This document shows positions 1,230 to 46,318 of a stretch of DNA of 64,000 bases, in pieces. The stretch's first letter is position 1, and every line of letters begins with the position of its first letter. The stretch is from positions 4,883 through 68,882 of IMG/VR virus record IMGVR_UViG_3300020048_000120. One strand, given 5' to 3'. Made by a program: the position numbers and the translations under genes. The notes beneath the pieces were generated by a model, which did not search any database, was not told where the DNA came from, and saw only the letters and a list, made by a program, of their open reading frames with translations. Source of the DNA: a virus (lineage: Duplodnaviria; Caudoviricetes).

Positions 1230-2500
1230 CGAAGGCCTTCAGTAGTGATCGTTAATCACTACCCGCAGCATAACCTGCAGCTGCATAATTTCTATGCAGA
1301 CTAGACTATATCTTCATCCTTCTTAAAAAGTTAGGATGTCTCCTATTTCGACCTCACTTGAGATCTACTCCATTCCTGGATAGTCGTTGAACGTTCTCCA
1401 CTGCTCGCGCATAGAGGAGCTTCGCTGCTGATTGCCCAATCTTTACATTTTTCAAACCATGGCTTTATCTTTCGATTAGCAGTGGTAGTAAAGCTCTAAG
1501 GGGTTTCCAGCAATTAAAGAGATTTTTTGTATCTGTATTACTACAGATAGGTGGCATGAGCATTTTAACTTTACTAATAAAACAATAATATACCAAAGTG
1601 TCGTTCGATATAATATTTTGAAACATGATATCACTCCCAACCATTAAAACCTTTTAAATATCTTAATAAGTAATCGTGGTATGGATCTTTATGATCGCAG
1701 TCTAAGAGTTCTAATACTTTCTCTTTTTCAAATCTTGTATCATTTAAAAACTTAGATAAATTATATAAAGACTGCTGTTTAGTAGTAACATTTAAAACAA
1801 ATATATCTATATCACAAAATAACGCCTCTTTAAGTCCAAATCCTCTTAAAATTCGTGATTTAAAAATATCATTATTTATAGATAAATCATTAAGCCATTC
1901 ATGCACTGGTTTAACTATATCGTCATGATTAACTTGTTGTTTAAATAATTTTGTATTTGCAAATTGCTCTCTAGGAGTGCTCCATTTACAATTTTCTTTA
2001 TAATATCCTTTATCACTATCAATTCTATCAATGGACGTATTATGTGGTCTTGGTCCCATGTCATTATAAAAGGCTTGAAAAGATTTAAGCCATTCATTAC
2101 AAACAGTAATACCGCGTTCTCCGTAGAGATAATATTTTCTAGCTTTTGGATTTCCGCAGCGTTGAATCATATTTTCCCAAGTACTATATTCTCTACTTCC
2201 ATTCATTCCGTGTTTAGTGGAAATCATTACTCGATAGCAACCACAACTTTTTATTTTGGATCTAATTAAATGACTCATTAGAACTTCTTTAACATTACCA
2301 CAGTCACATTGACAACTAAAAGTTCTACCATTTTTTGCAATAGGTAGTTCTTTAAGAACTGTAAGCATGTTAAATTTTTGTCCAATGGTTATGTGCAACG
2401 GTTTCATTTCATCGCTATTCCTTCTCATAAAATAGTTTTAGATCGACACATCTAAAACCTTGGTTTAAAATATTTTAGTAAAGTTAAAAACTTGTTATTT
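1230..2500 (-). mobile_element. Group I self-splicing intron (IA2-like) with homing endonuclease
   Basis: Minus-strand core elements: P AATTGCTGGAAA (~1501-1515), Q AATCAGCAG (~1425-1433), R GTTCAACGACTA (~1381-1392), S AAGATATAGTCTAG (~1301-1314). P7 is GACTA/TAGTC, with P7.1/P7.2 hairpins before the P3 3' strand. Exon 1 ends in U and the intron ends in G (1230). Removal restores ...LTDCSGG|KGVICK... Confidence 0.92.
1631..2428 (-). CDS. Intron-encoded HNH homing endonuclease
   Basis: CQCDCGN, KSCGC, YSTWENMIQRC, YGERGITVC.EW and SIDRIDSDKGY..ENCKW motifs of phage HNH endonucleases; lies inside the intron, 5' of the ribozyme core. Confidence 0.9.
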   Translation of the reverse strand: MRRNSDEMKPLHITIGQKFNMLTVLKELPIAKNGRTFSCQCDCGNVKEVLMSHLIRSKIKSCGCYRVMISTKHGMNGSREYSTWENMIQRCGNPKARKYYLYGERGITVCNEWLKSFQAFYNDMGPRPHNTSIDRIDSDKGYYKENCKWSTPREQFANTKLFKQQVNHDDIVKPVHEWLNDLSINNDIFKSRILRGFGLKEALFCDIDIFVLNVTTKQQSLYNLSKFLNDTRFEKEKVLELLDCDHKDPYHDYLLRYLKGFNGWE

Positions 2501-4177: not shown

Positions 4178-5521
4178 TTATCTAGGTGGCAGATATGGTG
4201 GCTGTTGATACTGTGGCTGTTGCGGAGGGTACTGCGGAAGATACGGCGGCTGCAAATATTGCTGTGGCATTTGCTGTGGATACTGAGGCATTTGCTGTGG
4301 ATACTGCTGCGGCATCTGCTGTGGGTACTGTGGCATCTGCTGTGGGTACTGAGGCATCTGCTGTGGGTACTGAGGCATCTGCTGCGGGTACTGAGGCATT
4401 TGCTGAGGATATTGTTGCTGCACTAACTGAGGCAATAATTGGTTTGGCACATATGCCACAGTAGGTGTAGTTTGTACAATACTTTTAAAATCTAAACCTC
4501 GTTTAGTAACTTTTAACTCAGGCCGTTGTTGAGGCATATACTGCGGTTGCTGAGGTATAGGTTGCTGATACTGAGGTTGATATGGTTGTGGCTGATAAGG
4601 CTGTTCTATAGCTGCTGGAGCCTGTGCTATAGGCTTTAAAACATCATTATCGTCGTTAATGTTGCCATCATTACCATACTGCACAGGGATGCTTCTAATT
4701 TCTGGTAGTAGAGCATTTAAATCATCAAAATGTTCTAACCAATCAGAGTCAAATGTCAGCTTATCTGATTCATCAATATAATCTTTATACATTACAATTA
4801 TATCATTTAATCTAGATGCTATATTAGCAGCTGTTTTTAACAAAGCTGAAAGATAAGGGGCTACCTGTGAATTAGAACCAAAGTTATATTCTTCAGGATC
4901 ATCAATTGACGTGAATATAAACTGGAATAATTGCTTATAAGTTTCCTTATCCTTTACACGGATCTTCTCATGTTTCTCAGTTTTAAGAGAATCATAAAAA
5001 GGAAAACTTACTATACCTACTCTTGAAAATCTTTTACCATGATGAGTCCCACCCCTCTTTAAATAAATATTAACAAAAAGATTATCTGGTTTAATTTTAA
5101 TACCGGATACCATAGCACTAATAAAATTATGAACTGATTTTTCATCAGCATCTTTTATAATGGTTAATATTTCGGCTTGCTCGGGTGATAGCTTACTATG
5201 GTGTTCTGGAGAAGACACCATAACTAACAACTGTTGCGCTATTACCCCAAGTGTGAAATTCAGTCTGATATTAATAACATGCTTTAATTTCTTAATAACA
5301 TCAGACTCTCCTCTTAAAATGTTTTCAGTTAAAGGATGAAATATGATTTTCTCATCTTGATTAAAGTTTATAAGATTATTTTTAGTTGGTAAAACTAAAC
5401 GTGCACCATTTATTAATAAAGGTGTTCTTTTATCATCAAGTTTAGAACTAATATAACCTTGTTCATCGGCATCTAAACCAGAAAACTTCAGGATAGATGT
5501 ATAGATTTCTAATAACTTCAT
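4178..5521 (-). CDS. phiKZ gp70-like protein with Q/P/Y low-complexity C-terminal tail
   Basis: Syntenic between the PicA-like and beta-like genes; the C-terminus has seven YPQQMPQ units. Confidence 0.65.
   Translation of the reverse strand: MKLLEIYTSILKFSGLDADEQGYISSKLDDKRTPLLINGARLVLPTKNNLINFNQDEKIIFHPLTENILRGESDVIKKLKHVINIRLNFTLGVIAQQLLVMVSSPEHHSKLSPEQAEILTIIKDADEKSVHNFISAMVSGIKIKPDNLFVNIYLKRGGTHHGKRFSRVGIVSFPFYDSLKTEKHEKIRVKDKETYKQLFQFIFTSIDDPEEYNFGSNSQVAPYLSALLKTAANIASRLNDIIVMYKDYIDESDKLTFDSDWLEHFDDLNALLPEIRSIPVQYGNDGNINDDNDVLKPIAQAPAAIEQPYQPQPYQPQYQQPIPQQPQYMPQQRPELKVTKRGLDFKSIVQTTPTVAYVPNQLLPQLVQQQYPQQMPQYPQQMPQYPQQMPQYPQQMPQYPQQMPQQYPQQMPQYPQQMPQQYLQPPYLPQYPPQQPQYQQPPYLPPR
4262..4414 (-). 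repeat. 21-bp coding tandem repeat (YPQQMPQ x7)
   Basis: GGCAT(C/T)TGCTG(T/C/A)GG(G/A)TACTG units recur at 21-24 bp spacing on the + strand. Confidence 0.9.
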
Positions 5522-24081: not shown

Positions 24082-25950
24082 TTACCAGCGGAATGACTGA
24101 CCGCTATGATTTCCAGCAAAGTTCTGCTGATAACCATAGACACCACCATTTTGGAAAGACTGCGATGGCGTTAATAATGCGGCACTAGCAAATGATGCAA
24201 CACCTCGCATGTTGCTAATATCGCTACCAGATAGCGGAGTGTTAACCCTAATAGGTAGTCCAGAATCTCGGATACCTTGTGAAAGTGCTTCCATGAAAGT
24301 AGAACTAAAGGTTACTCGTTCAGCGAATCCAGTGAAGTTAGCTGTTTCGTTTGTTAACGCAACTATCATTTTCTTACGAACTGCTAACCGCAATGCCTGC
24401 GGGTATTGAGCCCGTAGAAATGTATCTGACCATTCACGAATTGCCACAGGATTTCGTTCACCAACTATATTACAAACAGCCAGGTAGTCAATGTCACGGA
24501 TATCACGTTTAATACCTGAACGATCTGTCCAGGTTCCGAGGTGAATCCGATTACCTGGATCAGCAAACATAGGAGAACCCATGCTAAAATGACGACTAAA
24601 TACGCCATTCGTTAACTGGTCAGCTGCTGCATAAATAGAACTATATGCAGATTGTGAACCATTTGCAGCCGACGCAAAAATCGATGTGTACCATGTCTGC
24701 GGTCCATACTCAGGACAATCAAGACTAACTATTAACCTTGCCTGAATCAGCGCTGAAACTAATTGCCCTAGGTCCTCAAGTTTAAAACTGTCGGCCTTGG
24801 TGTCGATACGAGTACCGACACCTGTTGGTTCATTGGCTATATTGGCTTCAATATTTAAAGCACCAATATCGTTAATGTCAATCTCACCACCCTGACCGAT
24901 TGTAGGCCTGAATGTTTGAATCCAATTGGAGTTATCATTTAACGATAATGAAGTCGCTAATGCCAGCAATACTGATCCAATAGTATAACTAAAATTAGAC
25001 TCCAAATTGGTGATCACAAGCCGTGCCACATACTTCTGTGTGGGCGCGTATTGCTGTGGCGCGTATGGGTTAAAACCATTCATAGGCGATATTGGATTCC
25101 AAAGTAAATCAACGAAAGCAGAAGCTTCAGCGACTTTTACATCTTTGTCTCCTGCGTTCAATGAGGTATACTTTCCTTGTCCAGCATTATTTTTTTTCGA
25201 TTCAAATTGTAGCAATATATCGCTACGCATTGGTGCCCCAACAGCATCTTGGATCTGTTGTCTATTAAAACCAACGTTAATAGACATAGTGCTATCATGA
25301 GCCGCCATAGCCAAATTTACATCATGGAAGCCCGGAGTGCGTGCTTCTAATTCAGTCCCACACGCTAATCCAGCGTTCAATGCTAGACGGTGAACTGCGT
25401 ATTTATCGTCAGGGTTAAATGACGATGGTACAACAGTGCCGTCCACTGTAAACCATGGCCCAACTGGGAATGCTTTTCTAACTCTGTCCGTTGCTTTACG
25501 AATTAGATCGTTATCCAAAGCATCTGAAGTTACTCTCATAACTTCTACCTGCTGGTTGGCTATATTATCAATTACCGGTGTAACTTTCTCTCCAGTAGCC
25601 TCAATTAAGATAATGTGATAAGCTACCCCAACATCAGGGGCGGCTTTCTGACGTAGAGCCACTATAATACAGCTGAATGCCAGTGACGGCTCAACAGTCG
25701 TATCCATGTCGATAAGCGCAATTTCTACGCCATCATTGGCTTGTTTATAAACTTCTAACAATGAAGTTTTCAATTTGTTATACACCTCCGAGCCTAGCCC
25801 CTTTGGGATAGGTGCAGCCATCAGGCCGGTGTTGTGAAATGACCATGTACTGGCTTGTTGCGGCCTTTGTTGATTCACCGTTTGATTAGCTTGACCTTGG
25901 TTGGCCTGAGCTTGGTTGTAATTCTGACTTCCTTTATTTACAATAGCCAT
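24082..25950 (-). CDS. chmA: Chimallin, major phage-nucleus shell protein (phiKZ gp54-like)
   Basis: 622 aa with segments matching recalled chimallin sequence (DAVGAPMRSDI, DIGALN, RIDTKA..F....GQL, LGTW....KRDIRDIDYLA, FTGFAERVTF...F.EAL); upstream of the gp55-like gene. Confidence 0.92.
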   Translation of the reverse strand: MAIVNKGSQNYNQAQANQGQANQTVNQQRPQQASTWSFHNTGLMAAPIPKGLGSEVYNKLKTSLLEVYKQANDGVEIALIDMDTTVEPSLAFSCIIVALRQKAAPDVGVAYHIILIEATGEKVTPVIDNIANQQVEVMRVTSDALDNDLIRKATDRVRKAFPVGPWFTVDGTVVPSSFNPDDKYAVHRLALNAGLACGTELEARTPGFHDVNLAMAAHDSTMSINVGFNRQQIQDAVGAPMRSDILLQFESKKNNAGQGKYTSLNAGDKDVKVAEASAFVDLLWNPISPMNGFNPYAPQQYAPTQKYVARLVITNLESNFSYTIGSVLLALATSLSLNDNSNWIQTFRPTIGQGGEIDINDIGALNIEANIANEPTGVGTRIDTKADSFKLEDLGQLVSALIQARLIVSLDCPEYGPQTWYTSIFASAANGSQSAYSSIYAAADQLTNGVFSRHFSMGSPMFADPGNRIHLGTWTDRSGIKRDIRDIDYLAVCNIVGERNPVAIREWSDTFLRAQYPQALRLAVRKKMIVALTNETANFTGFAERVTFSSTFMEALSQGIRDSGLPIRVNTPLSGSDISNMRGVASFASAALLTPSQSFQNGGVYGYQQNFAGNHSGQSFRW

Positions 25951-33393: not shown

Positions 33394-35514
33394 TTAATAT
33401 CCTACCTCGCTTATAAGCATCTCATGTTTAGGGAAATATCCTAATGATTGTAAAATAATCCTATTAGGTAAAGTTAAATCTAATACTATCTTCTTTATAT
33501 TAATAACTGATTTAATTTCTTCAGGTATACCAAAAGAAGTTATATAAGATATAGATATATAGATAGTAGGTAAATCTGTTTTATCATATTTAATTAACCA
33601 AGAACTAAGTCTAGTAGCTAATTCTTTATCTTCTATATTAGCTAACCATTCTTTTACACCTGTTATATTTAATACAGTTGTTGGTATCTTGATAACCGTA
33701 TAAGGCGGTGGAGATATACTACCGTATTTATCTGCAAATATATCTACCCAAAATAAATGATGTAAGTATGGTGACATAGCTTCACCTCTAGCATATGCTT
33801 CAGGTTGCTTTACTTTTGATTTTTTATAGTATTCTACTTCTCCATTTAAAAGAGATTTTTGAATATTTCTTTCTATGGAAGCCAAATCTTTAAGTTCATC
33901 TATTATAGATATTTTTTCCCCTCTCATAACTGTGGCTAATATATTATCCATTTTTTTACTAGAAGCTTCTATAAGACTCTTAGGTGATGCACTATTTTTT
34001 AAATGCACTCCTTTTTGTTCTCTATCTAATTCTTTAAACACACTACCTTCTTTAACCATAATACATGTATAGTAATGTTTAGATACAGAAGTTTGTGCAA
34101 ATACAGGAAATACAAATTCTGGCTTTAATTGTATATCGTAAAGTTTACTACGTTCTACACTAATGTTAGCTGAAAACATAGCCAATATATGTGCCATACA
34201 TTGTGTAGATAAATACATTATAGAACCAGATAATGCAAAGGCTTCATCATGAAATACTAATTTACCAAAATACCAGATTACCCATTCATCCATAGCAAAC
34301 ATAGTACTATCTGTATCCGATACTACTACTGTTCTTCTTATCATATTACGTATAAATGCTGTACCAGATGGAGTATTTTTAGTTAGAAATATATTTTCTA
34401 TAAAATCTCTATATTTCATAATTACATTTATAACATTTAAAGAAGTCGCTGCTATGGTATTTACTTGTTCTGGCATTATTTTACTATAGTCTTTTCCTAT
34501 ACCTCTTGTTTCTAATAAACAAATTTGATGAACATAATTAATAATAGAACTATCTATAGACTTTAATGTAGCTAAAGGATCTGGAACAACTACATCTGTA
34601 ATTTTACTACTTAATTCTGTTAAGAAAGTTCTAACGAAAGATTCATTATGTAATCTAATATGATAAAGATCGCTTATATAAACTATAGCTGCTCTTTCTA
34701 CGTCTTCTAGATTTAATATAAAACTATGTATTTTATTAAAAGCATTTCTATCTCTCCAATAAAGATCAGTTGAATATAGTATACAAGATTCTGTTTCTTC
34801 TATGGATGGATATTTTAAATTATATTTAGTTATTATATTTCTAAAGGATTCTTTATCTAGAGAACTAGTTATATTTATAATATCGTAAAGAGTTACATCT
34901 GGATTTCTATAATGTCTATTACCTGAAATAATCTTTTCATTACTAGCATTACCTAATGAACTAACTGTTCTAGTTATAGATGTTAATGTACTGTGTGCTG
35001 TTGGATTATGTAAAATAGTCCCTTCACTAGCAAATCCTCCAGATGCTCCGTTACTATAAAGTTTATGATTAGCTTGTTCGTTATCTTTAGCTATAAAAAG
35101 ATCTATTTGTTTATTAGCTTTAGCTATAGCCGCTTCTATTTTTACTTTACTTCTAATACGTGTACTATTAAGAATAAAATTAACTAGTAATGATGGTTTA
35201 ACACTACTTTGTAAATATGTTGTAAAAGTTGGAGCTAAAATTTCATTTTCAGAAACTACTGTATTTATATAGTTACTTAAAAAGCAACTAGTTTTCTTTT
35301 TATCGCCATTAGTATCTCGTTGATAATAATGTACTATTGGATCAGCCGCATTAATTACTTTATTTTTTATACCTTTTATTATAAATTCTTTACATTCTTC
35401 TATATTTTTACCGGACATTTTAGATAAGTAAAAACTATTTTGACCCACATATTGATGTAATGGGCTAATGTCGCGTTTATAAAATTCAGTAGGTCTAAGA
35501 AATATATTTTCCAT
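33394..35514 (-). CDS. Family B DNA polymerase, catalytic subunit (phiKZ gp50-like)
   Basis: Motif B-like EQANHKLYSNGASG and motif C-like VVSDTDST; VSKHYY. Confidence 0.85.
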   Translation of the reverse strand: MENIFLRPTEFYKRDISPLHQYVGQNSFYLSKMSGKNIEECKEFIIKGIKNKVINAADPIVHYYQRDTNGDKKKTSCFLSNYINTVVSENEILAPTFTTYLQSSVKPSLLVNFILNSTRIRSKVKIEAAIAKANKQIDLFIAKDNEQANHKLYSNGASGGFASEGTILHNPTAHSTLTSITRTVSSLGNASNEKIISGNRHYRNPDVTLYDIINITSSLDKESFRNIITKYNLKYPSIEETESCILYSTDLYWRDRNAFNKIHSFILNLEDVERAAIVYISDLYHIRLHNESFVRTFLTELSSKITDVVVPDPLATLKSIDSSIINYVHQICLLETRGIGKDYSKIMPEQVNTIAATSLNVINVIMKYRDFIENIFLTKNTPSGTAFIRNMIRRTVVVSDTDSTMFAMDEWVIWYFGKLVFHDEAFALSGSIMYLSTQCMAHILAMFSANISVERSKLYDIQLKPEFVFPVFAQTSVSKHYYTCIMVKEGSVFKELDREQKGVHLKNSASPKSLIEASSKKMDNILATVMRGEKISIIDELKDLASIERNIQKSLLNGEVEYYKKSKVKQPEAYARGEAMSPYLHHLFWVDIFADKYGSISPPPYTVIKIPTTVLNITGVKEWLANIEDKELATRLSSWLIKYDKTDLPTIYISISYITSFGIPEEIKSVINIKKIVLDLTLPNRIILQSLGYFPKHEMLISEVGY

Positions 35515-38114: not shown

Positions 38115-38272
38115 GTTTTTTTTTCCTTAAATTTAATAGTTAAAAATCTGTACCATAGTATAAATAACTAATTAAAATATTTTAGAAACAAAAAAAAACT
38201 ACATACACCAAAAATGGTGTATGTAGCTAAGGCAAGACTTTTTATTAAAAATATCTGATAAGATAACTTAGG

Positions 38273-38346
38273 TGGGCCCACACAGACTCGAACTGTGGAC
38301 CAAAGGATTATGAGTCCTCTGCTCTAACCAACTGAGCTATAGGCCC
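38273..38346 (-). tRNA. tRNA with CAU anticodon, Ile2 (lysidine)-type; CCA not encoded
   Basis: Clean cloverleaf GGGCCTA...GGACT-CAT-AATCC...GTTCGAG...TGGGCCCA followed by CCT; resembles bacterial ileX. Confidence 0.85.
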
Positions 38347-38385
38347 ACCTAAGTTATCTATATCTAATACATCAATTATTTTTTT

Positions 38386-38625
38386 TTATTCATCTAAATC
38401 AACAGTTGGTAAATCTTTCCATATTAGTTTTTTTACAACATAAGTAGCTGAAGTATCCATTCCTTCTGCTATAAATCCACCTTGCAACACTAGTGTTCCG
38501 TCTAATTTTGTAGCTAACCTAAAGTTAGATGGAGTGTCACTAATAATGACACTAGATCCTTTATATGGAACTGTATTAAATTGGGCACTACCTGAATCTG
38601 AACTTGTCGACGGTGTGAGTGACAT
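38386..38625 (-). CDS. Small hypothetical protein, paralog of the next gene
   Basis: Shares FRL..KLDGTLVLQGGF...W.DLPTVDL with 38627-39001. Confidence 0.65.
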   Translation of the reverse strand: MSLTPSTSSDSGSAQFNTVPYKGSSVIISDTPSNFRLATKLDGTLVLQGGFIAEGMDTSATYVVKKLIWKDLPTVDLDE

Positions 38626-38626
38626 G

Positions 38627-39001
38627 TTAATCCTCTAAATCAACAGTTGGTAGGTCTTCCCATGTTAATCCCCCTTTAGTATAACGACCATTTTCATCCA
38701 TCTCCTTCCACTCAAACCCACCTTGCAACACTAGTGTTCCGTCTAACTTCTTACCTAATCTAAAAGTAGTTGGTGCATTACTGCTAGCTCTAGATGAGTA
38801 TTTACTAGGAAGTGTAAGAAATGTACCACCAGTTAAATCTGAGCCAAATACTGTTGGCGTTGTAATTGTCGCGTCAGAAGGAACTGTGGTAAGATTTGAA
38901 GTATGTTTACTTTCATCTATTTGAGCCACATAGATAGTTTCACCACAGCCAACTATCTCATTTAAACCTGAACCTAATACTGTCGATGCTGTAATAGTCA
39001 T
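38627..39001 (-). CDS. Small hypothetical protein in tRNA cluster
   Basis: Likely start MTITAS at 39001 (AGGA SD); C-terminal module duplicated in the next gene. Confidence 0.65.
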   Translation of the reverse strand: MTITASTVLGSGLNEIVGCGETIYVAQIDESKHTSNLTTVPSDATITTPTVFGSDLTGGTFLTLPSKYSSRASSNAPTTFRLGKKLDGTLVLQGGFEWKEMDENGRYTKGGLTWEDLPTVDLED

Positions 39002-39083
39002 GTCGTTCCTTTCTAAAAAATAATAATAATGATAACTATAAATATTAAATCTATGATTATCATTAGTCCATTTGCACATGAAT

Positions 39084-39159
39084 TGGTGGGACCGGAAAGA
39101 GTTGAACTTTACATTCTTGGCTTTATGAGAACCCTACTTCACCGTTAAGCTACAGTCTC
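39084..39159 (-). tRNA. Degenerate tRNA with CAU anticodon (Met-like), CCA encoded
   Basis: 76 nt, CT-CAT-AA loop, GTTCAAC T-loop, ACCA end; one mismatch each in the acceptor, anticodon and T stems. Confidence 0.6.
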
Positions 39160-39233
39160 AAATTTCTGTACTATTAAATAAATGGTGCCTGGGATCGGAC
39201 TCGAACCGACATGCCTTACGGCGAGGGATTTTA

Positions 39234-39824
39234 CTTACCACTTCAATTTTCATTGCCATTATAAAGGTATAATGTTTGTGGTCTGGACTATGCTATCGCC
39301 ATATTGAGAAAAAACACAATAAGTAGCTAGATACTCATGCTTTTCAAATATATTTTCTCAACTTAGGCATTCCGTCTCTAGTCTCTACACCTTCCTTAAA
39401 CTAGCAATTATACCGACTATGGAGTTAACCTCTAGTTGCTAGAATTATTGGTCTCTATTAAGGCTTGGCTCGGCGTTAGCGTGTACGATTGGAAGAGTAC
39501 TATTCCGCGTTATTGAAATGGGTAATTACTCCATCCGTTAACAGTTCTTGAGTTAAGGCTAAACTTCTACCCTTAAACCCTCACTCTCTACATTCTTTTT
39601 AATCATCGTATTTAGCGTTCGCCGAATTTACGGAAATACTACTAACGTCTTTCGATTGAGTTGTTACGCCAATAAGTTAATAACAGGGAGTAAGAGTCGA
39701 ACTTACATGAAGAGTCGTGGCATTGATCATCTTCTTACCATGTGCCGTTAGCGTCTACCGTTCCGCCATCCCTGTTAATAACTTACTGACTACCAACTCA
39801 TTTTTCGCTAGTGACCCATTTAAA
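39234..39824 (-). ncRNA. ORF-less group I intron in tRNA-Leu
   Basis: P1 GACU/GGUC with U.G at the splice site; P AAATTCGGCGAAC, Q AACGCCGAGCCAAG, R GTAGAGACTA, S GCATAGTCCAG; P3 TTCCGT/ACGGAA; P7 GACTA/TAGTC; terminal G at 39234. Confidence 0.9.
39673..39785 (-). ncRNA. tRNA-like domain nested in the 5' part of the intron
   Basis: ACAGGGA/TCCCTGT acceptor, TG-GCG-GAACGGTAGA-CGC D arm, GTAAG-TTCGACT-CTTAC T arm; no canonical anticodon arm and no CCA; acceptor extended by about 10 bp. Confidence 0.75.
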
Positions 39825-40233
39825 AGTCCCTTGTGTATACCAAATTTCACCACCCAGGCAAAACACCTTAGATAAATATATTCGACAAAATATACGTATC
39901 ATATTGTCATTACAGCCAAGTGTGGAACTGTAATCAAGACTACAAATTATTAATGTTACCTTCCAAACCAATAATTAAATTAAGGAGGAAATCTAATTAC
40001 CGGCCCTACATGGTTTTAGTATAACAAAAATAACCTTAGCCATTCTACATTTAATTTTGAGCGTTAGTCTTACCGTCAACCCGATACAACTTATTACCTG
40101 TCTTCGATAAAGCATATCTGCCTTAACAACAGTTGGGCGCGTCTCAAACTATTAAATAAGGATATAGCTTCATACTTAACTAGGTTTAGTAACCTTGCAA
40201 GTAAACATACCTAAACTAAGTAGAAGCTATAAC

Positions 40234-40310
40234 TGGTCCACCGAGCGGGGTTCGAACCCACAACTTATACCTTAGAAGGGTATTACTCTATCCAATTGAG
40301 TTATCGGCAG
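40234..40310 (-). tRNA. tRNA-Arg(UCU)
   Basis: 77 nt cloverleaf, ATACC-CT-TCT-AA-GGTAT anticodon arm, GTTCGAA T-loop and ACCA end. Confidence 0.92.
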
Positions 40311-40574
40311 AAAAAATAGTATTTATGTAAGCTTGATGTTCTAAGCAACTTCTTACTCTCGTAACTTAGTACAGGAGAGCACTGTTATCAAGCCTACAAA
40401 AATACTACTTAATTTTACTACAAGTGTAATCAAAAACTTGCTTATTTTTAATTAACATAGATAATCCTACATAGTTGCACGCTTCCTCTGAAATCACAGG
40501 GTAGTGTACTATGTTGTTAGATATCAAGTATACTATTAATAAGTACATTTTTATTTCCAATGTTTTATAATCAA

Positions 40575-40800
40575 CGTTTGAAGCCGGAGTCGAACCGACA
40601 AGCTTATTAGCGATAATAAATATTTTAATTAAGAGGCTCTTCATCATATATAGGTAACCTTGCCAGAATATCCTATATAGATTCTATTTACCTAAACCCG
40701 TGGCATGGTTTAACGTCGATTTAGGTACCTATTTAATTCTTATTTACTATTGTGTTTACCTATATATACAACACACTGTATATAATTTCACCATTCAAAC
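40575..40800 (-). ncRNA. 226-nt RNA closed by a tRNA-like acceptor stem and T arm
   Basis: 5' GTTTGAA-TG-GTGAAAT and 3' GTCGG-TTCGACT-CCGGC-TTCAAAC-G; internal long-range helix ATATAGGTAA/TTACCTATAT. Confidence 0.55.
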
Positions 40801-40811
40801 GTTTTTATAAA

Positions 40812-40992
40812 TTTAATACAACTAAGAGTCAATAACTACCCCATGCGTCGTTATCATTAACGCACGATACACTGCTAAAATCACACTCTATCACTAGTAA
40901 TGATACAGCATATGGCGAACAACCATATATCATTGTCTAGGTCAGGCGATAACGATTATTCTTAGTCTGGCTGCAGCTACCATTGTATTAAA
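40812..40992 (-). ncRNA. Candidate pseudoknotted structured RNA
   Basis: 10-bp closing stem, 7-bp second stem, two hairpins and an 8-bp loop-to-upstream pairing; starts just downstream of the promoter box at 41004-41013. Confidence 0.55.
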
Positions 40993-41084
40993 CTTATTAC
41001 ATATAAAGTATATATGTGTAAACTATGCTTTAAAAAGGTTTTTTGCTTCATCTCTCATACTATACAAGGAGATGAATATTTTTT

Positions 41085-45346: not shown

Positions 45347-46318
45347 TTATAATACTAAACCATCTTCTGTAGAGGCTACATTTCCTGAAATGATAGATTT
45401 AGGGTTAATCATTTTACGAGTTTCATCATATACCGCTATCTTATTATTTAACTCACCGACAACTGAGTTAAAAAATCCAGATATTAGACATGCGTGTATA
45501 GGCATCTCTACCATACTCGAGTCCTTAACAAAATCAGGAATATAACCGGTAGCCTGATACTCTACTGGTACATTACTATCGTGAGTTTCAGACTCTGACG
45601 CTAAAGTAACTAAAGATATTAAGTGAGTTCCTTTTACCAACTCAATTTCCTTACTATAAAAATCAAGGAACGTTAATTTAGCTGGGAACGAAGTAACCTT
45701 GTGATAGTTTAACCAATTATTAAGGTCTGCACTATCTAACTCTCTATTAAAACCACTAAATATAGTTGCTAATAGAACAATGGTTGATTGAACTTCGCTG
45801 TCAACCATTCCGCGCGGTTTAGCGTTAGTATTTTCACGATAGAAAATATTAACTGGCTTACCACGTTTTTGTGAAATGGACTCGTACGACTTCAGAGTAT
45901 TTAGCGTGTTTTCAGTTTCAATACGTGACCCACTGCTACCAACAAGAATTACGATAACTAATTCGTCTCTGGAAAGTAGCTCACTGACTAACACTGGTCC
46001 AATAACGTTTCCAGTACCGCCGCCGCCGCTGTGTACAACAATGTTAATGTTCCCTGGTTTAAACTTATGTAAGATAGATTTTGACTCTTCATATAATGTT
46101 TGATAGTTGCTAGTTCGTAACTTACCAGAACCATCAACATTATCTACCTTATAAATCATTTCAACTGGAAGAGCATTAATCTTATTGCTCTCGCTTGTGT
46201 CTATGAACGCAGTTTCAAGTATAGCAAAACCCTCAGTTTCCTTACCTGAGTTTTTTACGAAATGGCTGACTACATTTGTTGCCATACCACCACACGCATA
46301 TAAACGCAGTGTATTCAT
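45347..46318 (-). CDS. phuZ: PhuZ phage tubulin
   Basis: LYACGG, DTS.SN, GSGKLR and HSGGGGTG tubulin signature; short acidic tail EDGLVL. Confidence 0.95.
   Translation of the reverse strand: MNTLRLYACGGMATNVVSHFVKNSGKETEGFAILETAFIDTSESNKINALPVEMIYKVDNVDGSGKLRTSNYQTLYEESKSILHKFKPGNINIVVHSGGGGTGNVIGPVLVSELLSRDELVIVILVGSSGSRIETENTLNTLKSYESISQKRGKPVNIFYRENTNAKPRGMVDSEVQSTIVLLATIFSGFNRELDSADLNNWLNYHKVTSFPAKLTFLDFYSKEIELVKGTHLISLVTLASESETHDSNVPVEYQATGYIPDFVKDSSMVEMPIHACLISGFFNSVVGELNNKIAVYDETRKMINPKSIISGNVASTEDGLVL

What the first reader, a model, noticed from the sequence alone, without database searches (positions are those of the whole stretch)
38199..41013. A roughly 2.8-kb promoter-to-terminator RNA operon dominated by non-coding structure
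Seen, in transcription order from the promoter at 41004: pseudoknot RNA, tRNA-mimic, 71-nt junction, tRNA-Arg, long hairpin, intron-split tRNA-Leu with nested mimic, degenerate tRNA(CAU), two paralogous mini-ORFs, tRNA-Ile2, terminator (38199-38230). I found no second promoter box inside. Inference: one precursor processed into many small RNAs, a possible tRNA-replacement and decoy module against tRNA-targeting defences.
Basis: inference. Interest (0 to 1): 0.7.

Follow-up and report, generated by a model that had tools for sequence, protein, structure and literature searches.

The report
Phage tRNA operon, intron-split tRNA-Leu
A giant nucleus-forming phage, probably of Moraxella, has one 2.8-kb unit that makes the tRNAs for the codons it over-uses most; that supply role is ordinary, but its tRNA-Leu is split by a self-splicing intron that carries a tRNA look-alike.

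Summary
Window 41036-38197 (minus strand) is bounded by a phage-specific two-part promoter motif and a strong terminator. No complete second promoter lies inside.

It contains:
- tRNA-Arg(UCU);
- tRNA-Leu(UAA), split by a 591-nt group I intron;
- a low-scoring tRNA(CAU);
- tRNA-Ile2(CAU);
- two paralogous small ORFs;
- two anticodon-less tRNA-Leu look-alikes. One sits on a 20-bp stalk in intron helix P2. The other stands alone upstream.

The '71-nt junction' could not be reproduced. The 'pseudoknot RNA' is only weakly supported.

The best reading is an ordinary phage tRNA supply operon. ATA, AGA and TTA rank 1st, 2nd and 4th of 61 codons by phage/host usage ratio. The Ile2 gene is 75/76 identical to Moraxella chromosomal tRNA, anticodon arm included. 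That argues against a nuclease-proof replacement tRNA. The decoy idea has no support: both look-alikes lack an anticodon arm, A73 and CCA.

Two related phages keep a syntenic cluster, but with introns in different tRNAs. At least 18 other uncultured viral contigs carry group I introns in tRNA genes.

Earlier AI notes of this scan reported tRNA-like inserts in phage group I introns on other DNA. No relatives of the look-alikes were found, so their function stays open.

The parts
41003..41036 (-). Phage-specific two-part promoter: upstream half TTTTTAAA (41036-41029) and core ATATACTTTAT (41013-41003)
   Evidence: The core has 12 exact copies, all on the minus strand and mostly just upstream of genes. 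Most copies have TTTCTAAA 13-14 nt upstream; here the spacing is 15 nt.
40812..40992 (-).
   Evidence: Perfect helices of 7 bp or more are enriched (P about 0.002-0.01). Folding z is only -1.7. No Rfam match. No homologues.
40575..40800 (-). Free-standing tRNA-Leu look-alike. It has a 7-bp acceptor stem (10 bp with its flanks), a D arm with an inserted hairpin, a T arm, and a 128-nt branched arm in place of the anticodon loop. No CCA; discriminator G.
   Evidence: Model R1 gives 21.6 bits, E 4e-6, aligning only the exon-like parts. Folding z -3.0, 0 of 80 shuffles as stable. Stems listed. Not a tRNA or tmRNA by ARAGORN or Rfam.
40314..40410 (-). Long hairpin (24-nt arms, 88% complementary) ending 3 nt before tRNA-Arg
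   Evidence: repeat I1; window z -5.7.
40234..40310 (-). tRNA-Arg(UCU), CCA encoded
   Evidence: ARAGORN. Rfam 58.3 bits. 86% identical over 56 nt to the tRNA-Arg of relative L006. 75% identical to the Moraxella gene.
40163..40231 (-). Long hairpin starting 3 nt after the CCA of tRNA-Arg
   Evidence: Minimum-energy fold of segment D, z -4.0.
39966..40005 (-). 16-bp hairpin with the loop UCCUCCUU (anti-Shine-Dalgarno-like)
   Evidence: Minimum-energy fold. The significance of the loop sequence was not tested.
39825..39859 (-). tRNA-Leu(UAA) exon 1: acceptor strand, D arm and anticodon stem up to U33
   Evidence: The joined exons are called tRNA-Leu(taa) by ARAGORN.
39234..39824 (-). Group I intron, 591 nt, no ORF. 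Internal guide GGUC at 39816-39813. P3 at 39635-39630 with 39375-39370. P4 at 39624-39620 with 39475-39471. P7 at 39383-39379 with 39290-39286. Terminal G (omegaG) at 39234. The large inserts lie in P2, P5, P6 and P8.
   Evidence: Rfam RF00028 gives a partial core match, 18.1 bits, E 0.039. Custom model R1 gives 55-68 bits, E 1e-19 to 8e-22. Shared blocks are read against alignment A2.
39670..39788 (-). P2 extension: a 20-bp stalk (90% complementary) carrying a tRNA-Leu-like cloverleaf (39775-39682). The cloverleaf has an acceptor stem, a D arm with GG and a T arm, but no anticodon arm or CCA; discriminator U.
   Evidence: repeat I3; z -5.0; 29 bits, E 1e-8 to 9e-11.
39183..39233 (-). tRNA-Leu(UAA) exon 2: U34 to CCA, with the long variable arm and T arm
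39084..39159 (-). Low-scoring tRNA(CAU), with an A2-C71 mismatch and a weak T stem; CCA encoded; Met or Ile2 undecided
   Evidence: ARAGORN. Rfam 38.6 bits against a cut-off of 29. 76% identical to a tRNA-Met of Cronobacter phage GAP32. No Moraxella counterpart.
38627..39001 (-). Small ORF 1 (124 aa), with AGGAA before the ATG
   Evidence: No family in Pfam or PHROGs.
38386..38625 (-). Small ORF 2 (79 aa), paralogue of ORF 1, with GAGGA before the ATG; it starts 1 nt after the stop of ORF 1
   Evidence: 52% identity, E 2e-22. dN/dS 0.70 overall and 0.55 in the C-terminal half. No homologues in 5.8 billion proteins.
38261..38359 (-). tRNA-Ile2(CAU), 38346-38271, enclosed by a perfect 18-bp leader-trailer stem that extends the acceptor stem by 11 bp
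   Evidence: Rfam 70.4 bits. The full-length E. coli matches listed are annotated tRNA-Ile. 75/76 identical to Moraxella chromosomal tRNA, whose flanks do not pair. Inverted repeat I2.
38197..38228 (-). Intrinsic terminator: 14-bp stem, 4-nt loop, T run
   Evidence: Window z -5.5. A further TTTCTAAAATAT promoter-like box follows at 38188.

Best explanation
This is the tRNA transcription unit of an uncultured phiKZ-like, chimallin-encoding jumbo phage whose host is probably Moraxella.

HOW IT WORKS. A phage-type promoter at about 41036-41003 drives one precursor of about 2.8 kb, which ends at the terminator at 38228-38197. Processing releases four tRNAs: Arg(UCU), Leu(UAA), a CAU tRNA of unclear identity, and Ile2(CAU, read as AUA after lysidine modification). 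Processing is inferred to use host RNase P, 3' trimming enzymes, and RNase III or E at the long hairpins and leader-trailer stems.

WHAT IT IS FOR. The tRNAs supply decoders for AGA, UUA and AUA, the codons the A/T-rich phage over-uses most relative to its host.

THE INTRON. tRNA-Leu becomes functional only after a 591-nt group I intron splices itself out. This intron belongs to a family of compact (about 200-nt) tRNA-Leu(UAA) introns found in many uncultured viral contigs. Here it is enlarged by peripheral inserts.

THE LOOK-ALIKES. One insert is an anticodon-less tRNA-Leu-like cloverleaf on a 20-bp stalk in P2. A second tRNA-Leu-like RNA lies upstream. I read both as tRNA-Leu-derived leftovers or accessory domains produced by intron- and endonuclease-driven rearrangement of the cluster. 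They are not decoders or decoys.

WHAT IS SHOWN AND WHAT IS INFERRED. Shown from sequence: the elements, their family membership, the synteny and the codon match. Inferred: the single transcript, self-splicing, the processing enzymes, the lysidine modification, the host, and the lack of function of the look-alikes.
For: BOUNDARIES. The promoter motif and the terminator bracket the unit, with no complete promoter inside it.

tRNAs. Three tRNAs are found directly. The fourth appears after joining the exons in silico.

INTRON. The custom model gives 68 bits, E 8e-22. Blocks shared with nine viral tRNA-Leu introns include GAGCCAAGC, AAGGUGUAGAGACUAG and AUAGUCCAGACCACAAAC...AGUGGUAAG. Rfam gives a partial core match.

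CLADE CONTEXT.
- 11 of 20 related records hold group I introns, up to 9 per record.
- Relative L006 has an intron-split tRNA-Leu(UAA) (Rfam 62 bits), a tRNA broken by an HNH gene, and a tRNA-Arg-like stretch that ARAGORN and Rfam do not call and that I read by eye as a decayed copy. All lie upstream of its DNA polymerase.
- Relative L008 has introns in tRNA-Arg(UCU) and tRNA(CAU) instead.
- Both relatives place a PP-loop (TilS-like) gene, or by-eye ORF, next to the cluster (one search read by eye).

CODON MATCH. In the phage, AGA is 58% of Arg codons, TTA 54% of Leu and ATA 52% of Ile. The phage/Moraxella usage ratios are ATA 9.1x (rank 1 of 61), AGA 4.1x (rank 2) and TTA 2.9x (rank 4).

HOST. 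The Ile2 gene is 75/76 identical to Moraxella tRNA. Its 30-mer is found exactly in 5 genomes, all Moraxella, out of 185,579 species.

PHAGE TYPE. Divergent family B polymerase and a weak, below-cut-off match (17 bits against a cut-off of 27) to phiKZ internal head proteins; chimallin.
Against: - There are no RNA data.
- Rfam's own group I model reaches only 18 bits against a cut-off of 50.
- The junction is shifted by one base relative to the family. If the 5' cut falls after U34, the product would have an 8-nt anticodon loop.
- The J8/7 segment differs from the family consensus.
- The look-alikes keep perfect 7-bp acceptor and 5-bp T stems and fold far better than shuffles. That fits retained function better than decay.
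- The host assignment rests on one captured tRNA gene.
- About 1 kb of spacer with z of -4 is unexplained.
Confidence: 0.75

Rival explanations
1. Anti-defence module. The tRNAs replace host tRNAs destroyed by tRNA-targeting nucleases, and the tRNA look-alikes act as decoys that soak up those nucleases.
For: Phage tRNAs are known to counter tRNA-cleaving defences (PMC10264068, PMC11555353, found). The Arg, Leu and low-scoring CAU tRNAs diverge from the Moraxella genes: 75%, 79-81% and no match. The look-alikes keep a tRNA elbow, with an intact T loop and GG in the D loop.
Against: The Ile2 tRNA has the host's exact anticodon arm, so it gains no resistance. The set of isoacceptors is predicted by codon usage alone. 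Both look-alikes lack the anticodon stem-loop that anticodon nucleases recognise, and they lack A73 and CCA. No tRNA repair ligase is present in the 69-kb fragment, which is inconclusive at 25% completeness. No conservation of the look-alikes was found anywhere.
Confidence: 0.1
2. Carrier-intron reading. The P2 tRNA-like domain and the upstream look-alike are functional small RNAs. RNase P and 3' trimming enzymes cut them out of the spliced intron or the precursor. Alternatively, the P2 domain recruits a tRNA-binding protein that helps folding or splicing.
For: Strong predicted structure: z -5.0 and -3.0. Perfect acceptor and T stems that differ from tRNA-Leu at several pairs on both strands while staying paired. 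The 'tRNA on a stalk' design is shared with the genuine tRNA-Ile2. Earlier AI notes of this scan describe tRNAs or cut-down tRNAs in loops of phage group I introns in other genomes (not checked here). Lak phage tRNA introns are predicted to encode a tRNA (10.1101/356790). From memory: phage T4 makes two stable tRNA-like RNAs of unknown function from its tRNA cluster, and mitochondrial LeuRS and TyrRS assist group I splicing.
Against: No second example of either element was found, so there is no covariation evidence. Eighteen or more other viral tRNA introns of this kind, and the relatives' introns, carry no such insert. Both elements lack A73 and CCA. Broken tRNAs, and one stretch I read as a decayed tRNA, do exist in the sister cluster of L006.
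Confidence: 0.2
3. Decayed locus. The tRNA-Leu is a pseudogene whose bloated intron no longer splices, and the unit is drifting debris around two or three working tRNAs.
For: The intron is three times the family size. Rfam scores it below its cut-off. The junction is shifted by one base and J8/7 deviates from the family. The CAU tRNA at 39159-39084 has stem mismatches.
Against: Both exons are intact and join into a canonical 86-nt tRNA-Leu with A73 and CCA. All the large inserts lie in peripheral loops, while the core blocks stay nearly identical to the family. TTA is the phage's main Leu codon, at 46 per 1000, so the tRNA is needed.
Confidence: 0.1

Closest known systems
Phage T4 tRNA gene cluster (8 tRNAs plus stable 'species 1 and 2' RNAs, made from polycistronic precursors); recalled from memory, not tested here
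   Same: Clustered phage tRNAs transcribed together, with small ORFs and mobile endonuclease genes in or near the cluster. It also has extra stable RNAs with tRNA-like ends and unknown function.
   Different: T4 tRNA genes have no introns. There is no sequence similarity. Here the look-alikes are tRNA-Leu-derived and one sits inside an intron.
Group I intron in the anticodon loop of tRNA-Leu(UAA) of cyanobacteria and plastids; also tRNA-Ile(CAU) of Azoarcus (PMC3984707, PMC13168695)
   Same: Same gene and same loop. It has P1 with a U-G pair, a terminal G, and a P3-P9 core. The core signatures GAGCCAA and GGUGYAGAGACU match what I recall of the plastid trnL intron.
   Different: It lies in a phage. 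It is 591 nt against about 200-250 nt. The junction is U33|U34 instead of U34|A35. It has a tRNA-like insert in P2. Kinship to the cellular introns was not tested here; only kinship to viral copies was.
Compact tRNA-Leu(UAA) group I introns in IMG/VR viral contigs (alignment A2: L116, L138, L157, L164, L175, L181, L186, L196, L198)
   Same: 68-bit match to their model. The J6/7-P7 and P7'-P9 blocks are nearly identical. All sit in phage tRNA clusters.
   Different: They are 195-210 nt long with no nested tRNA-like domain. Their junction is U34|A35.
'Enigmatic' tRNA introns of Lak megaphages, one predicted to encode a tRNA (Devoto et al., 10.1101/356790)
   Same: A phage tRNA gene interrupted by an insert that itself looks like a tRNA.
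   Different: The paper's passages read here name no intron class for the Lak inserts, which it calls 'enigmatic'. Here the tRNA-like part is a side arm of a bona fide group I intron.
Phage tRNAs that evade tRNA-targeting defences (PMC10264068; PMC11555353)
   Same: Phage-encoded tRNAs expressed during infection.
   Different: Those cases rest on anticodon-loop differences from the host tRNA, or on rescue of a specific cleaved tRNA. Here Ile2 has the host's anticodon arm, and codon usage predicts the set.

Membership tests
Group I intron | Conserved catalytic core (P3-P8, with both P7 strands and J6/7) | tested here: met
   The custom model built from 9 viral tRNA-Leu introns gives 55-68 bits, E 1e-19 to 8e-22. 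Rfam RF00028 alone reaches only 18.1 bits, E 0.039, below its cut-off of 50.
Group I intron | P1 helix with a U-G pair at the 5' splice site, and a terminal G at the 3' end | tested here: met
   Read from the sequence: exon GACU (39828-39825) pairs with GGUC (39816-39813), and U33 pairs with G. G39234 aligns with the family's terminal G. The alternative cut after U34 is not excluded.
Group I intron | Guanosine-dependent self-splicing | not testable with these tools
   This needs an in vitro splicing assay or RNA-seq.
tRNA-Leu(UAA) anticodon-loop intron lineage | Insertion between U34 and A35 | tested here: not met
   The model alignment shows one extra U after the terminal G. The junction that yields a 7-nt loop is U33|U34. 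Relative L006 has its intron at 31|32.
tRNA (for the two look-alikes) | Complete cloverleaf with a 7-nt anticodon loop, detectable by tRNA models | tested here: not met
   No ARAGORN call. No Rfam tRNA match at E up to 10. The anticodon arm is replaced by 37 nt in the nested element and by 128 nt in the upstream one.
tRNA-Leu (for the two look-alikes) | Discriminator A73 and a 3' CCA (the A73 rule for bacterial LeuRS is recalled from memory) | tested here: not met
   The nested element is followed by UAUU and the upstream one by GUUG. The real tRNA-Leu has ACCA.
tmRNA (for the upstream look-alike) | tRNA-Ala-like ends with a G3-U70 pair, a tag reading frame and pseudoknots | tested here: not met
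   ARAGORN finds no tmRNA. Rfam tmRNA gives 8.6 bits against a cut-off of 47, on the T arm only. Pair 3-70 is U-A.
tRNA-Ile2 (lysidine tRNA), 38346-38271 | CAU anticodon on an Ile2-type body | tested here: met
   The full-length E. coli matches listed are annotated tRNA-Ile. C4-G69 and C5-G68 are present in the sequence; I recall these as TilS determinants.
tRNA-Ile2 (lysidine tRNA), 38346-38271 | Lysidine synthetase (TilS) available | tested here: inconclusive
   No PP-loop gene is present in the 69-kb fragment, which is 25% of the genome. Relative L006 has a PP-loop gene beside its cluster, and L008 has a similar ORF there by eye. A host TilS is expected, since the tRNA is 75/76 identical to the host gene.
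Nuclease-evading phage tRNA | Anticodon-loop or stem differences from the host isoacceptor | tested here: not met
   For Ile2 the single difference from Moraxella lies in the D loop. The anticodon loops of the Arg and Leu tRNAs were not compared base by base.
Single transcription unit (operon) | One promoter, one terminator, and one continuous transcript | tested here: inconclusive
   The motif and terminator positions fit. No transcript data were available.

The most novel reading that the evidence does not exclude
The group I intron of tRNA-Leu acts as a carrier for a functional, anticodon-less tRNA-Leu look-alike mounted on a stalk in P2, and a second free-standing look-alike is made from the same precursor. 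These tRNA-shaped RNAs are cut out by tRNA-processing enzymes and act on a tRNA-binding factor: a processing enzyme, a synthetase that helps splicing, or a host defence protein that recognises the tRNA elbow.
Probability: 0.2. Interest if true: 0.8.

Novelty: new variant of a known kind. Interest (0 to 1): 0.55.

Why it matters
A 2014 review stated that every phage group I intron then known sat in a protein gene, despite the many phage tRNA genes (PMC3984707). I found no paper in the searched library that describes a group I intron in a phage tRNA gene.

Here a jumbo-phage clade carries such introns in tRNA-Leu, tRNA-Arg and tRNA(CAU), in different genes in different members. At least 18 further uncultured viral contigs do the same. 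So tRNA genes are a regular home for mobile introns in large phages.

The locus gives:
- a clean, testable self-splicing substrate;
- a rare case where a captured host tRNA names the probable host (Moraxella) of an uncultured nucleus-forming phage;
- a sharp example of codon-supply logic.

The nested tRNA-like arm and the second look-alike would matter more if they prove functional. Phage T4's tRNA-cluster 'species 1 and 2' RNAs have, as far as I recall, no assigned function.

Tried and rejected

SEARCHES FOR CLOSE RELATIVES THAT FOUND NOTHING USEFUL.
- The flanking proteins and the polymerase gave no close relatives in IMG/VR.
- Megablast against phage records hit only the tRNA-Ile2 segment.
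- The whole region compared with polymerase-linked loci and 5 related records matched only tRNA-Arg.
- Exact-pattern scans of metagenome contigs for the upstream look-alike and for the nested element gave 0 hits.
- Look-ups by sequence in this scan's own findings returned only this window.

OTHER NEGATIVE RESULTS.
- ARAGORN in intron mode did not call the split tRNA-Leu and gave one spurious tRNA-Gln.
- The sigma-70 promoter scan is at chance: 14 found against 17 expected. It is irrelevant for a phage with its own RNA polymerases.
- The upstream look-alike is not a tmRNA or any other known RNA family.
- The small ORFs have no Pfam or PHROG family, no homologues, and an uninformative Atlas result.
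- No RNA ligase or TilS gene is in the fragment. This is inconclusive, because only 25% of the genome is held.
- No tRNA or tRNA-like insert is present in the relatives' other group I introns or in other viral tRNA-Leu introns.

The idea that the look-alikes are LeuRS substrates was considered and dropped, because they have no A73 and no CCA.

Full report
WHAT THE WINDOW IS

The window is 64 kb of a 68.9-kb IMG/VR viral contig, estimated 25% complete. It encodes:
- the divergent family B DNA polymerase of phiKZ-like phages (33394-35514, PF20286, 661 bits);
- a protein next to the finding with a weak, below-cut-off match to phiKZ internal head proteins (17 bits against a cut-off of 27);
- chimallin (24082-25950, PF25677, 113 bits) and a weak, below-cut-off tubulin match.

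So this is a nucleus-forming jumbo phage. No isolated phage is closer than 39% polymerase identity. The nearest uncultured relatives reach 58-59%.

BOUNDARIES OF THE UNIT

The sigma-70 scan is at chance. A phage-specific motif is not.
- ATATACTTTAT occurs 12 times exactly, always on the minus strand. There are 32 matches at up to 1 mismatch against 12.9 expected; no shuffle reaches 32.
- Most copies have TTTCTAAA 13-14 nt upstream and lie just before genes.
- One copy is at 41013-41003, with TTTTTAAA 15 nt upstream.
- The only related site inside the unit (40117, one mismatch) lacks the upstream half.
- The unit ends at a 14-bp hairpin plus T run, 38228-38197. A further TTTCTAAAATAT box follows it.
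- G+C rises to 0.30-0.42 inside the unit, against 0.21-0.30 outside.

THE CANONICAL tRNAs

ARAGORN and Rfam find three: tRNA-Arg(UCU) at 40310-40234, a weak tRNA(CAU) at 39159-39084 (38.6 bits), and a strong tRNA(CAU) at 38346-38271 (70.4 bits).

The full-length E. coli matches listed for the strong one are annotated tRNA-Ile. Its 30-mer spanning the anticodon arm to the T stem occurs exactly in only 5 of 185,579 species genomes, all Moraxella. The whole gene is 75/76 identical to theirs. It is therefore a recently captured host tRNA-Ile2, and Moraxella is the probable host.

The other tRNAs are not host-like. Arg is 75% identical, the Leu 3' exon 79-81%, and the weak CAU tRNA has no match.

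THE SPLIT tRNA-Leu

Exon 1 (39859-39825) and exon 2 (39233-39183) have perfectly matching acceptor and anticodon stems. Joined in silico, they are called tRNA-Leu(taa), 86 nt, with A73 and CCA.

Evidence that the 591-nt insert is a group I intron:
- It gives a partial Rfam group I match over P3-P7 (18 bits, E 0.039).
- A 15-nt core motif recovered 119 or more viral loci. About 18 of these are tRNA genes split by compact group I introns inside phage tRNA clusters.
- A covariance model built from nine such tRNA-Leu genes scores the window's intron plus exon 2 at 55-68 bits, E 1e-19 to 8e-22.
- The core blocks are nearly identical to the family. The extra length lies in the P2, P5, P6 and P8 loops.

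One extra U follows the terminal G. A 7-nt anticodon loop therefore requires splicing at U33|U34, which the short P1 and P10 pairings allow. This is my reading of the sequence.

RELATIVES

- 11 of 20 related records carry group I introns, up to 9 per record.
- L006 (49% polymerase identity) has, upstream of its polymerase: an intron-split tRNA-Leu(UAA) with the intron at 31|32 (Rfam 62 bits); a 5' fragment of a tRNA-Leu-like gene followed by an ORF with no Pfam match; a tRNA split by an HNH endonuclease gene (PF13392); tRNA-Arg(UCU); a tRNA(CAU); a terminator; and a PP-loop (TilS-like) gene. It also has a tRNA-Arg-like stretch that ARAGORN and Rfam do not call, which I read by eye as a decayed copy.
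- L008 has introns in tRNA-Arg(UCU) (150 bits to the same model) and in tRNA(CAU). By eye, an ORF with the PP-loop SGG-DS motif follows its terminator (not scanned against Pfam).

So the Leu/Arg/CAU module is syntenic in the clade, while intron occupancy and gene integrity vary. That is the signature of mobile introns and endonucleases.

FUNCTION OF THE tRNAs

In 28 long ORFs, AGA is 58% of Arg codons, TTA 54% of Leu and ATA 52% of Ile. I compared this with 26 long ORFs from the Moraxella loci. The phage/host usage ratios are ATA 9.1x (rank 1 of 61 codons), AGA 4.1x (rank 2) and TTA 2.9x (rank 4). Rank 3 is ACT, which I take (textbook wobble rules, not tested here) to be read by the tRNA that also reads ACC, so it needs no dedicated tRNA. 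Codon supply therefore predicts the set exactly.

THE tRNA LOOK-ALIKES

- Five of the eight perfect T-arm hairpins on the minus strand of the 64-kb window lie in this 2.8 kb. Each has a 7-bp acceptor partner.
- The nested element (39775-39682) has an acceptor stem, a tRNA-Leu-type D arm with GG, and a T arm. It has no anticodon arm. It sits on a 20-bp stalk that forms the outer part of P2.
- The upstream element (40800-40575) aligns to the exon parts of the tRNA-Leu model. It has a hairpin inserted in the D loop and 128 nt in place of the anticodon loop and intron.
- Both fold much better than shuffles: z -5.0 and -3.0.
- Neither has A73 or CCA.
- No homologue of either was found anywhere, so conservation cannot be judged.

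Given the broken tRNAs, and the stretch I read as a decayed tRNA-Arg, in L006, I favour tRNA-Leu-derived leftovers or accessory intron domains. The intact stems keep a functional reading alive, at about 0.2.

OTHER PIECES

- Long hairpins bracket tRNA-Arg within 3 nt on each side.
- tRNA-Ile2 is enclosed by a perfect 18-bp leader-trailer stem that the Moraxella gene lacks. By eye, L006's tRNA-Leu has a similar 12-bp leader-trailer extension (sequence; not computed). These stems are plausible processing sites; this is an inference.
- The 5' leader (40992-40812) has more perfect helices than chance, but an unremarkable folding energy.
- The two small ORFs have Shine-Dalgarno-like motifs, are 52% identical and have dN/dS of 0.55-0.70. 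They have no relatives.

LITERATURE AND EARLIER NOTES

- A 2014 review says all phage group I introns then known were in protein genes (PMC3984707).
- The Lak megaphage paper reports unexplained ('enigmatic') tRNA introns, one predicted to encode a tRNA.
- Papers on tRNA-targeting defences describe escape through anticodon-loop changes (PMC10264068) or through rescue by specific phage tRNAs (PMC11555353).
- Earlier AI notes of this scan describe tRNAs or cut-down tRNAs inside phage group I introns on other DNA. I did not verify them.

VERDICT

The unit is best read as a codon-supply tRNA operon invaded by a mobile group I intron. The decoy and replacement reading is not supported. The nested and free-standing tRNA-Leu look-alikes remain unexplained.

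Noticed in passing
window 38261-38359, and L205-L209: The tRNA-Ile2 gene is 75/76 identical to a chromosomal tRNA of Moraxella (M. bovoculi and four Moraxella sp.). An exact 30-mer hits only Moraxella among 185,579 species. This names a probable host for an uncultured nucleus-forming jumbo phage.
   Followed up: yes
window 38261-38278 / 38342-38359; L006 about 2573-2925: A perfect 18-bp leader-trailer inverted repeat encloses tRNA-Ile2, pairing GGU with the discriminator and CC. The Moraxella gene lacks it. By eye, tRNA-Leu of L006 has a similar 12-bp extension. It may be a clade-specific processing signal.
   Followed up: partly
window 39966-40005: A 16-bp hairpin displays the loop UCCUCCUU, which resembles the anti-Shine-Dalgarno end of 16S rRNA. 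A chance match is not excluded.
   Followed up: no
window 1281-1589 (minus strand): A second, canonical group I intron (Rfam 90.9 bits) lies between ORFs 303-1193 and 1631-2428.
   Followed up: partly
window, 12 sites from 3743 to 54060 (minus strand): A two-part phage promoter motif, TTTCTAAA-N13/14-ATATACTTTAT, has every copy leftward. A variant with only the upstream box (TTTCTAAAATAT) occurs at 38188, 36872 and 36815.
   Followed up: yes
L008 2224-2845: Relative L008 has group I introns in tRNA-Arg(UCU), junction U34|C35 (150 bits to the tRNA-Leu intron model), and in tRNA(CAU). By eye, a PP-loop (TilS-like) ORF follows the cluster. The same intron family appears to move between tRNA genes that share a CUU context.
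   Followed up: partly
L006 2036-3800: Relative L006 has a tRNA-Leu intron at position 31|32, with an A-U rather than a U-G pair at the splice site. It also has a 5' tRNA-Leu-like fragment followed by an ORF with no Pfam match, and a tRNA split by an HNH endonuclease gene (PF13392) that lacks the 3' anticodon-stem strand.
   Followed up: partly
L102, L137, L153, L170, L174, L178, L191, L204: IMG/VR viral contigs hold group I introns in tRNA genes that appear by eye not to be tRNA-Leu (CAU and possibly Thr- or Lys-type anticodon loops). Phage tRNA introns seem widespread, yet I found no paper in the searched library that describes them.
   Followed up: partly
window 24082-25950 and 45347-46318: A chimallin homologue (113 bits) and a weak, below-cut-off tubulin (PhuZ-like) match are present. 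If the phage nucleus excludes host enzymes, self-splicing would suit tRNA maturation there. This is speculation.
   Followed up: partly
window 4311-4400 (plus strand): A tandem 21-nt repeat (GGCATCTGCTGTGGGTACTGA-like, at least 3 copies) was seen in the k-mer listing.
   Followed up: no
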